Part shown: piece by piece, positions 44,701 through 45,128 of the stretch
How the letters are laid out: each line of letters starts with the position of its first letter
Position numbering within the stretch: position 1 is the stretch's first letter
NCBI GenBank assembly: GCA_951406725.2
Contig: OX597822.1
Coordinates: 41,664,001-41,728,000, forward strand
From: Octopus vulgaris
Lineage: Eukaryota
Direction of reading: 5' to 3'
Length of the DNA: 64,000 bases
Made by a program: the position numbers and the translations under genes
The notes under the pieces: model-generated
The model's database searches: none
What the model was told of the DNA's origin: nothing
Seen by the model: the letters and a program-made list of their open reading frames with translations, nothing else

Positions 44701-44708
<8 letters not shown>

Positions 44709-45128
44709 ATATTTCGGAATGGTCATATTGCCAGTTTAGCCAATAAAAACACATGCACTATATATTTGGTGTTATTTTGCTTCAGTGTTATTTATTTTTT
44801 ACATTAATCTTAATCTTATTTCGGACAGAGTTCTTTTGTCACACTCCTGTGACCGCATCAGTGGTCCTTTGTTTTCTTCTTTCTTTTTTTGTGTCTCTCC
44901 TTACTAACCGTCAGCCATTTTGTATTTCTATTGTATGTCTTCATTTGAGAGGTGGTATGCAAATTTTTGTAAAAACACTTACTGGAAAAACCATCACATT
45001 GGAAGTAGAACCTTCAGAGTGTGTTTTTATTGGCTAAACTGGCAATATGACCATTCCGAAATATAACAATATCTGTTTCAACACACGACTTCACATAAAA
45101 AAATCTTGCACAACAAATATTTAAACGT
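44701..45128. mobile_element. Fold-back PLE-type element enclosing a ubiquitin fragment
   Basis: Perfect 52-bp inverted repeat 44701-44752 / 45021-45072, tail of about 55 nt on the right, degenerate HHR on minus 44823-44867, (TA)n on both sides. Confidence 0.75.
44939..45018 (+). pseudogene. Polyubiquitin mRNA fragment (monomer-monomer junction)
   Basis: L(H)[24 protein letters not shown]: ubiquitin C-terminus fused to ubiquitin residues 1-20, truncated on both sides. Confidence 0.92.

What the first reader, a model, noticed from the sequence alone, without database searches (positions are those of the whole stretch)
44701..45128. Polyubiquitin mRNA fragment captured between the inverted arms of a PLE-type element
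Seen: 80 nt encoding L(H)[24 protein letters not shown] sit 2 nt upstream of the right copy of a perfect 52-bp inverted repeat. They are in the same orientation as the tailed arm. The left arm extends inward and holds a degenerate minus-strand HHR (GGACCA-CTGATGC-G-GTCACA/TGTGAC-AAAAG..CTC-TGTCC). The tail recurs alone near 30495-30560 and 27080-27128. Established: a GG-MQIFV junction is diagnostic of polyubiquitin precursors, whose mRNA is abundant. Inference: the RT began on element RNA, switched template onto polyubiquitin mRNA, and then made the inverted arm. That would be a footprint of host mRNA capture by PLE-type retrotransposition.
Basis: partly seen in the sequence, partly recalled or inferred. 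Interest (0 to 1): 0.75.

Follow-up and report, generated by a model that had tools for sequence, protein, structure and literature searches.

The report
Host-gene scrap inside Penelope insertion
A young jumping-gene copy carries, at the seam between its two back-to-back halves, 74 letters identical to the animal's polyubiquitin gene on another chromosome, likely copied from that gene's mRNA during insertion; such by-products are known for human LINE-1, and here they give a way to test how Penelope-type elements finish inserting.

Summary
Window 44701-45129 is one insertion of a young Penelope-like element (reverse transcriptase plus GIY-YIG; 1851 exact tailed ends in the genome) in a TA repeat: a tail-less inverted arm (44701-44947) and a tailed arm (45019-45129). 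Between them, 74 nt (44945-45018, not 80) match one junction of the 11-unit polyubiquitin gene on another contig without mismatch; the 'LH' codons are element sequence. The piece is not in the family consensus and was the only dispersed near-identical polyubiquitin piece found. The inverted layout is the family norm (164 of 221 joints pair a short end with a tailed end), so the arm is likely a second cDNA primed on the other strand, not a fold-back after the switch. Six of 220 other joints hold traceable host fillers: four from flank within 1 kb, two from exons farther off (dynein heavy chain last exon, 502 nt, 6.3 Mb; a transcribed exon, 6.9 kb). None crosses a splice joint and orientation is not diagnostic, so an mRNA template is likely (0.6), not shown. 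The scan noted local and same-gene fillers in Penelope elements of other genomes.

The parts
44664..44700 (.). TA microsatellite, left side of the target
   Evidence: sequence; same context in most family copies
44701..44947 (-). Tail-less arm: last 247 nt of the element's terminal repeat (reference 3996-4241), 98% to reference copy L074
44822..44868 (-). Minimal hammerhead-like motif; this copy has AAAA in place of the family's GAAA; activity untested
   Evidence: no Rfam hit
44945..44947 (+). 3-nt microhomology (TTG) shared by the tail-less arm and the polyubiquitin gene
44945..45018 (+). Filler: 74 nt identical to the junction of units 9 and 10 of the polyubiquitin gene (G000:C3:117301989-117302062, minus)
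45019..45072 (+). Tailed arm, 5'-truncated terminal repeat (reference 4188-4241); blunt joint to the filler
45073..45129 (+). 56-nt tail (reference 4242-4297); equals the start of the element's 5' region seen in read-through copies
45128..45139 (.). TA microsatellite, right side of the target
   Evidence: sequence

Best explanation
This is one insertion of a young Penelope-like retrotransposon whose two back-to-back arms enclose 74 nt identical to the host polyubiquitin gene, likely copied when the element's reverse transcriptase jumped from its own RNA onto polyubiquitin mRNA before the two arms were joined. Steps: (1) the element's nuclease cuts a TA repeat on both strands (inferred from flanks; shown in vitro for a relative); (2) each cut end primes a cDNA on element RNA, one at the tail end and one 56 nt further in (fixed ends shown in the copies; priming inferred); (3) the tailed cDNA stops after 110 nt and continues on polyubiquitin mRNA for 74 nt with no shared letters at the switch (inferred); (4) its end anneals to the other cDNA through TTG and repair fills in (microhomology shown, annealing inferred). 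The product is a dead, single-copy by-product with no sign of function.
For: Element identity: ORFs with RT motifs, a Cys cluster and C-terminal GIY-YIG in L074/L076/L078 (Pfam RVT_1 E 8e-5, GIY-YIG E 0.009, both below cut-off). Two fixed ends: 164 of 221 unique head-to-head joints pair a short end with a tailed end, 1 has two tails, 56 have at least one end cut off or elsewhere; PMC11167929 shows cutting and extension of both strands and two start sites that bound the tail. Microhomology: 96 of the 130 joints without inserted letters share 2 or more letters against 15% in simulated random joins. Source: 0 mismatches to junction 9/10, 1-7 to the other nine internal junctions; another contig; only dispersed near-identical piece in two searches. 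Both other fillers from more than 5 kb away lie inside exons: 502 nt at 100% in the last exon of a dynein heavy chain gene and 72 nt at 96% in an exon that RNA contigs of two runs cover and splice out of. Exons are a few percent of such a genome (own knowledge). If RNA-templated, each exonic filler is in sense with one of the arms, as a jump needs.
Against: No filler crosses an exon-exon joint; the polyubiquitin coding region has no intron here, so DNA and RNA templates cannot be told apart in this copy. Four of six other traced fillers are non-coding flank within 1 kb (L109, L135, L269, L342), which shows that the joint readily takes templated DNA-like pieces. The two other exonic sources lie on the same contig as their insertions (6.9 kb and 6.3 Mb); being within 6.3 Mb has about 0.5% chance for a random mRNA, so proximity matters and a DNA or nascent-RNA template fits them as well. 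Sense with 'one of the arms' is always true and is no test. The window case was picked because it was recognisable and cannot be counted. The order of steps is not observed.
Confidence: 0.6

Rival explanations
1. The filler was copied from polyubiquitin DNA (or a loose cDNA piece) during end joining of the two cDNA arms, by a repair polymerase such as polymerase theta or by the element's enzyme on a DNA template; highly transcribed genes would be favoured because they are open.
For: Four local non-coding fillers and two same-contig sources; short microhomologies at joints; templated genomic pieces near the site are reported for LINE-1 (PMC11702581, passages).
Against: This source lies on another contig and is pure coding sequence; all three sources beyond 5 kb are exonic (two of them not pre-selected); the 502-nt dynein piece is long for polymerase theta fill-in (own knowledge).
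Confidence: 0.3
2. One reading: one enzyme copies element RNA, then polyubiquitin mRNA, then folds back and makes the inverted arm from its own product.
For: The layout arm-filler-arm is compatible in this one copy.
Against: The inverted arm (247 nt) is longer than the tailed arm (110 nt) and holds sequence that the tailed cDNA never had, so it cannot be a copy of it; it starts at a fixed point next to the TA repeat across the family; the arms differ at one site.
Confidence: 0.04
3. Assembly chimera between a repeat and the polyubiquitin gene.
For: Contigs of four other DNA runs show no joint of element and ubiquitin among the listed rows (lists are cut); no raw reads of this individual were available.
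Against: Chromosome-scale contig; both arms end at the family's normal points in a TA repeat; the filler matches one specific unit junction; similar fillers recur at other loci; a young private insertion would be absent from other individuals.
Confidence: 0.04
4. The piece is a real exon of a gene, or part of the element consensus.
For: An AG precedes and a GT follows most of the piece, with a branch-point-like word in the arm.
Against: Family copies continue differently at 44947; flanks are element sequence at 98-99% to the reference copy; no host-gene domain among 97 of 205 longer open frames of the window scanned.
Confidence: 0.02

Closest known systems
EN+ Penelope-like elements with inverted pLTR and one-sided tail (PMC8557442, passages; PMC11167929, parts 1-2 of 4; Neptune group as defined in PMC3846280)
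   Same: RT with C-terminal GIY-YIG, Cys cluster between them, hammerhead-like motif in the terminal repeat, inverted 5'-truncated arm, tail on one side, TA-repeat targets, two fixed start points.
   Different: Tail is 56 nt (30-40 in those papers); the passages read do not describe host pieces at the inversion joint.
Penelope-mediated capture of host DNA in Adineta vaga (PMC3846280, parts 1-3 of 5)
   Same: Host sequence enclosed by pLTRs in one insertion.
   Different: There a whole intron-containing gene or long spacers lie between direct pLTRs; here short internal exon pieces lie at the head-to-head joint.
LINE-1 chimeras with U6, other small RNAs and mRNA fragments by template switching or twin priming (PMC4476161, PMC13174262, passages)
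   Same: Host RNA piece joined to the 5' end of a truncated element in one insertion.
   Different: Different enzyme class; the host piece is closed by a second element arm rather than by target DNA; no poly(A) tail or readable target-site duplication.
LINE-1 insertions with templated local genomic pieces and microhomology at inversion joints (PMC11702581, passages)
   Same: Microhomology of 2 or more letters at inversion joints; extra pieces from nearby DNA.
   Different: The window's piece comes from another contig and is coding sequence.

Membership tests
EN+ Penelope-like element | Single ORF with RT and C-terminal GIY-YIG nuclease | tested here: met
   Longer family copies L074, L076, L078; Pfam RVT_1 E 8e-5 and GIY-YIG E 0.009, both under curated cut-offs; the window copy itself holds only terminal repeat
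EN+ Penelope-like element | Inverted 5'-truncated arm and a tail on one side only | tested here: met
   164 of 221 joints pair short and tailed ends, 1 has two tails
EN+ Penelope-like element | Hammerhead motif in the pLTR | tested here: inconclusive
   Stems I and II and CUGA...GAAA core in most of 150 counted copies; ninth core base differs from the recalled consensus; no Rfam hit; cleavage untested
Neptune group | Cys-rich motif between RT and nuclease | tested here: met
   CxxxxCxxC before the nuclease in L076/L078; definition from PMC3846280 and PMC8557442
Neptune group | Placement in an RT tree with named clade members | not tested
   No reference sequences fetched
Retrotransposon/host-mRNA chimera by template switch | Host piece and element arrive in one insertion | tested here: met
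   Filler lies between two arms that end at the family's normal points in one TA repeat; empty site not seen
Retrotransposon/host-mRNA chimera by template switch | Host piece in sense with the arm that it extends | tested here: inconclusive
   Sense with the tailed arm here, with the tail-less arm in L090 and L292; with two opposite arms the test cannot fail
Retrotransposon/host-mRNA chimera by template switch | Marks of processed RNA (spliced joint, poly(A), cap) | tested here: inconclusive
   None of three exonic fillers reaches an exon edge
Retrotransposon/host-mRNA chimera by template switch | Target-site duplication around the whole unit | not testable with these tools
   Target is a TA repeat; no related genome or empty allele on hand
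Processed pseudogene (retrocopy) | 3' end of the mRNA with poly(A) | tested here: not met
   Internal 74-nt piece only

The most novel reading that the evidence does not exclude
Penelope-type reverse transcriptases routinely jump from element RNA onto cellular mRNA before the two cDNA arms are joined, so that about 1 in 100 insertions of this family traps an exon piece at the inversion joint; the trapped pieces would sample the RNA present where and when the element moves in the germ line, and would be a route of exon copying not described for this class.
Probability: 0.4. Interest if true: 0.65.

Novelty: new variant of a known kind. Interest (0 to 1): 0.42.

Why it matters
How the two arms of Penelope-like insertions are finished and joined is still open (PMC11167929 calls the later steps unvalidated; PMC8557442 asks for mechanistic work). 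A young family with thousands of copies, fixed start points, short microhomologies and traceable fillers makes this testable from sequence alone: one spliced filler would show that the enzyme leaves its RNA for host mRNA in vivo. The insertion itself is an inert scrap, and equivalent by-products are known for LINE-1. Four full-text searches on Penelope elements with template switch, host mRNA or capture listed no paper on mRNA pieces at the inversion joint; most subscription papers and all supplements were not seen.

Tried and rejected
Rfam scan of the window: no hit at gathering score. Search for other dispersed polyubiquitin pieces with the last units and 3' UTR: only this locus and one 85% match of 67 nt on C8, not examined. 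Short tail-less or solo arms with unique upstream sequence were read for captured genes; the part of the output in view showed flank, other repeats and LINE or Tc1 pieces. L085/L175 'fillers' are the element's own 5' continuation. L082 and L355 gaps are bounded by TA runs and were set aside as separate or later insertions; L297, L343, L368, L370, L393, L398 look element-derived; L259 (28 nt) and most inserts under 25 nt were not traced. The L292 filler was tested for splicing: its 14 extra letters were not found in 110 kb around the locus, and RNA contigs run through that point without a splice, so it is not spliced evidence. Contigs of four DNA runs showed no element-ubiquitin joint among listed rows; two had no cover of the ubiquitin part at all, so this is no proof of absence. 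A display of long upstream stretches for all short arms could not be run, so the survey is a sample. Orientation as evidence for RNA was rejected.

Full report
Observation. The window holds a perfect 53-nt inverted repeat at 44701-44753 and 45020-45072 inside TA repeats. The frame through 44900-45050 reads [26 protein letters not shown]. A search of the own genome with 44925-45030 gave this locus and 11 places spaced 228 nt apart on contig C3: a polyubiquitin gene with 11 full units and a degenerate twelfth in one open frame of 879 codons. Window 44945-45018 has 0 mismatches to the junction of units 9 and 10 and 1-7 to the other nine internal junctions. The six letters before it ('LH') are element sequence; the gene has LR there. 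A second search with the last units and the 3' UTR found no other near-identical dispersed piece. So the piece is host-derived, recent and single.

The element. The left 240 nt match at least 40 scored places at 96-98% out of 872 candidates; an exact 36-nt pattern across the repeat-tail border occurs 1851 times, its reversed control 0 times. Longer copies encode an RT followed by a Cys cluster and a GIY-YIG nuclease (Pfam hits weak), which by the definitions in PMC3846280 and PMC8557442 points to the Neptune group; no tree was made. In element orientation the window holds a tail-less arm on the minus strand (44701-44947, reference 4241-3996) and a tailed arm on the plus strand (45019-45129, reference 4188-4297). 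The 56-nt tail is the start of the element's 5' region, as read-through copies show. The terminal repeat carries a minimal hammerhead-like motif; most of 150 counted copies have the GAAA core, this copy has AAAA; Rfam gives no hit and the fold is within shuffles.

The layout is the family norm. I aligned 366 fetched loci (some overlap; sampled from top hits, list order and tail variants, and 19 chosen by eye, so not random) to a reference copy and found 221 unique head-to-head joints. In 164 one outer end is the short end and the other the tailed end; 1 has two tails; in 56 at least one end is cut off or lies elsewhere. Of 130 joints without inserted letters, 96 share 2 or more letters, against 15% in simulated joins (palindromic joints may inflate this). 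PMC11167929 (parts 1-2 of 4 read) shows that a Penelope-like protein cuts and extends both strands of AT-rich DNA and starts at two internal RNA sites that bound the tail. The simplest reading is that each arm is its own cDNA and that the two are joined head to head. The inverted arm here is longer than the tailed arm, so it cannot be a fold-back copy of it. Earlier notes of this scan on other repeats in this genome reached the same two-start reading.

Fillers elsewhere in the family. Leaving out the window's own case, 6 of 220 joints hold host sequence that I could trace. Four come from non-coding flank within 1 kb: L109 (167 nt, 95%), L342 (about 170 nt, 94% in its unique part), L269 (inverted, 88%, repeat-like) and L135 (28 nt, 100%). 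Two come from farther: L090 holds 502 nt at 100% from inside the 615-nt last coding exon of a dynein heavy chain gene 6.3 Mb away on the same contig, with 3 and 6 shared letters at its ends; L292 holds 72 nt at 96% from a stretch 6.9 kb away that RNA contigs of two of four runs cover and leave at a splice donor (the runs are RNA by guess). Both are in sense with the tail-less arm, while the ubiquitin piece is in sense with the tailed arm. Rows set aside are listed under Tried and rejected.

Mechanism. Shown: two arms with fixed ends, a blunt joint between filler and tailed arm, TTG shared between filler and tail-less arm, exact identity to a coding junction on another contig. Inferred: the tailed cDNA was extended on polyubiquitin mRNA and then annealed to the other cDNA. 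For this: all three sources beyond 5 kb are exonic, two of them not pre-selected, in a genome where exons are a few percent (own knowledge), and polyubiquitin mRNA is abundant (own knowledge). Against: no filler crosses a splice joint; most fillers are local DNA; the two other exonic sources are near their insertions, which a freely diffusing mRNA does not predict. I put the RNA jump at 0.6 and DNA-templated end joining at 0.3.

Artefact check. No raw reads were on offer. Contigs of four DNA runs continue with the family consensus at 44947 and with the gene at the ubiquitin part; no chimeric joint is among the listed rows, which are cut. This fits a private insertion and proves nothing either way. 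No host-gene domain was found in 97 of the 205 longer open frames of the window; the only hit is a LINE RT at 46449-47978.

Comparison. Inverted arms, one-sided tails and TA targets are described for Penelope-like elements (PMC8557442, passages). Capture of host DNA and of an intron-containing gene between direct pLTRs is described in a rotifer (PMC3846280, parts 1-3 of 5). For LINE-1, chimeras with U6, other RNAs and mRNA fragments by template switching or twin priming (PMC4476161, PMC13174262, passages) and templated local DNA (PMC11702581, passages) are known; bioRxiv 10.1101/2024.08.27.596794 (passages) added nothing on fillers. Searches listed no report of mRNA pieces at the Penelope inversion joint. 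No supplements were read. The scan has noted a local filler and a same-gene exon filler in Penelope elements of other genomes, unchecked here.

Verdict. A new variant of a known kind, of moderate interest because a full-genome count of fillers could settle an open step of the mechanism.

Noticed in passing
L090:2483-2980 (G000:C1:62866152-62866649): 502 nt of the last exon of a dynein heavy chain gene, 100% identical, between the two arms of another copy; source 6.3 Mb away.
   Followed up: yes
L292:2272-2352 (G000:C7 near 3257700): 72-nt filler from a transcribed exon 6.9 kb away plus 14 letters of unknown origin; the left arm of this copy is oddly degraded while the right arm is clean.
   Followed up: partly
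window 45236-45431: Hairpin with 98-nt arms, 89% complementary, no spacer, 100 nt downstream of the insertion; similar spacerless hairpins flank L074 and L075.
   Followed up: no
window 46449-47978 (minus): LINE-type RT open frame of 510 residues with a weak PHD-finger match after the RT domain.
   Followed up: partly
window 30443-30576 and 27082-27126: Older, about 80% diverged relatives of the terminal repeat and tail.
   Followed up: partly
L074:1989-4823 and L210: The element's ORF has a long Asn/Ser/Gly-rich stretch before the RT, recalling the N-rich inserts of rotifer Penelope ORFs (there at other positions).
   Followed up: no
L085, L175, L088, L138, L210: Copies that read through the tail into the element's 5' region; L085 is a palindrome with 167 nt of this continuation at its centre.
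   Followed up: partly
L079 (G000:C3:117301.4-117304.1 kb): Polyubiquitin gene ends in a degenerate twelfth unit of about 43 residues rather than the usual one to three extra residues.
   Followed up: no
reference 4185-4200, many loci: Strong hot spot of 5' truncation about 100-110 nt from the tail end; both the ubiquitin and dynein fillers join arms cut there.
   Followed up: partly
window 44903-45024: The antisense arm supplies a branch-point-like word and pyrimidine tract, and the filler has AG near its start and GT after its end, so a 69-nt cryptic exon is conceivable; no RNA evidence.
   Followed up: no
L355:2038-2868: What looks like an LTR inserted in the element's internal TA repeat.
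   Followed up: no
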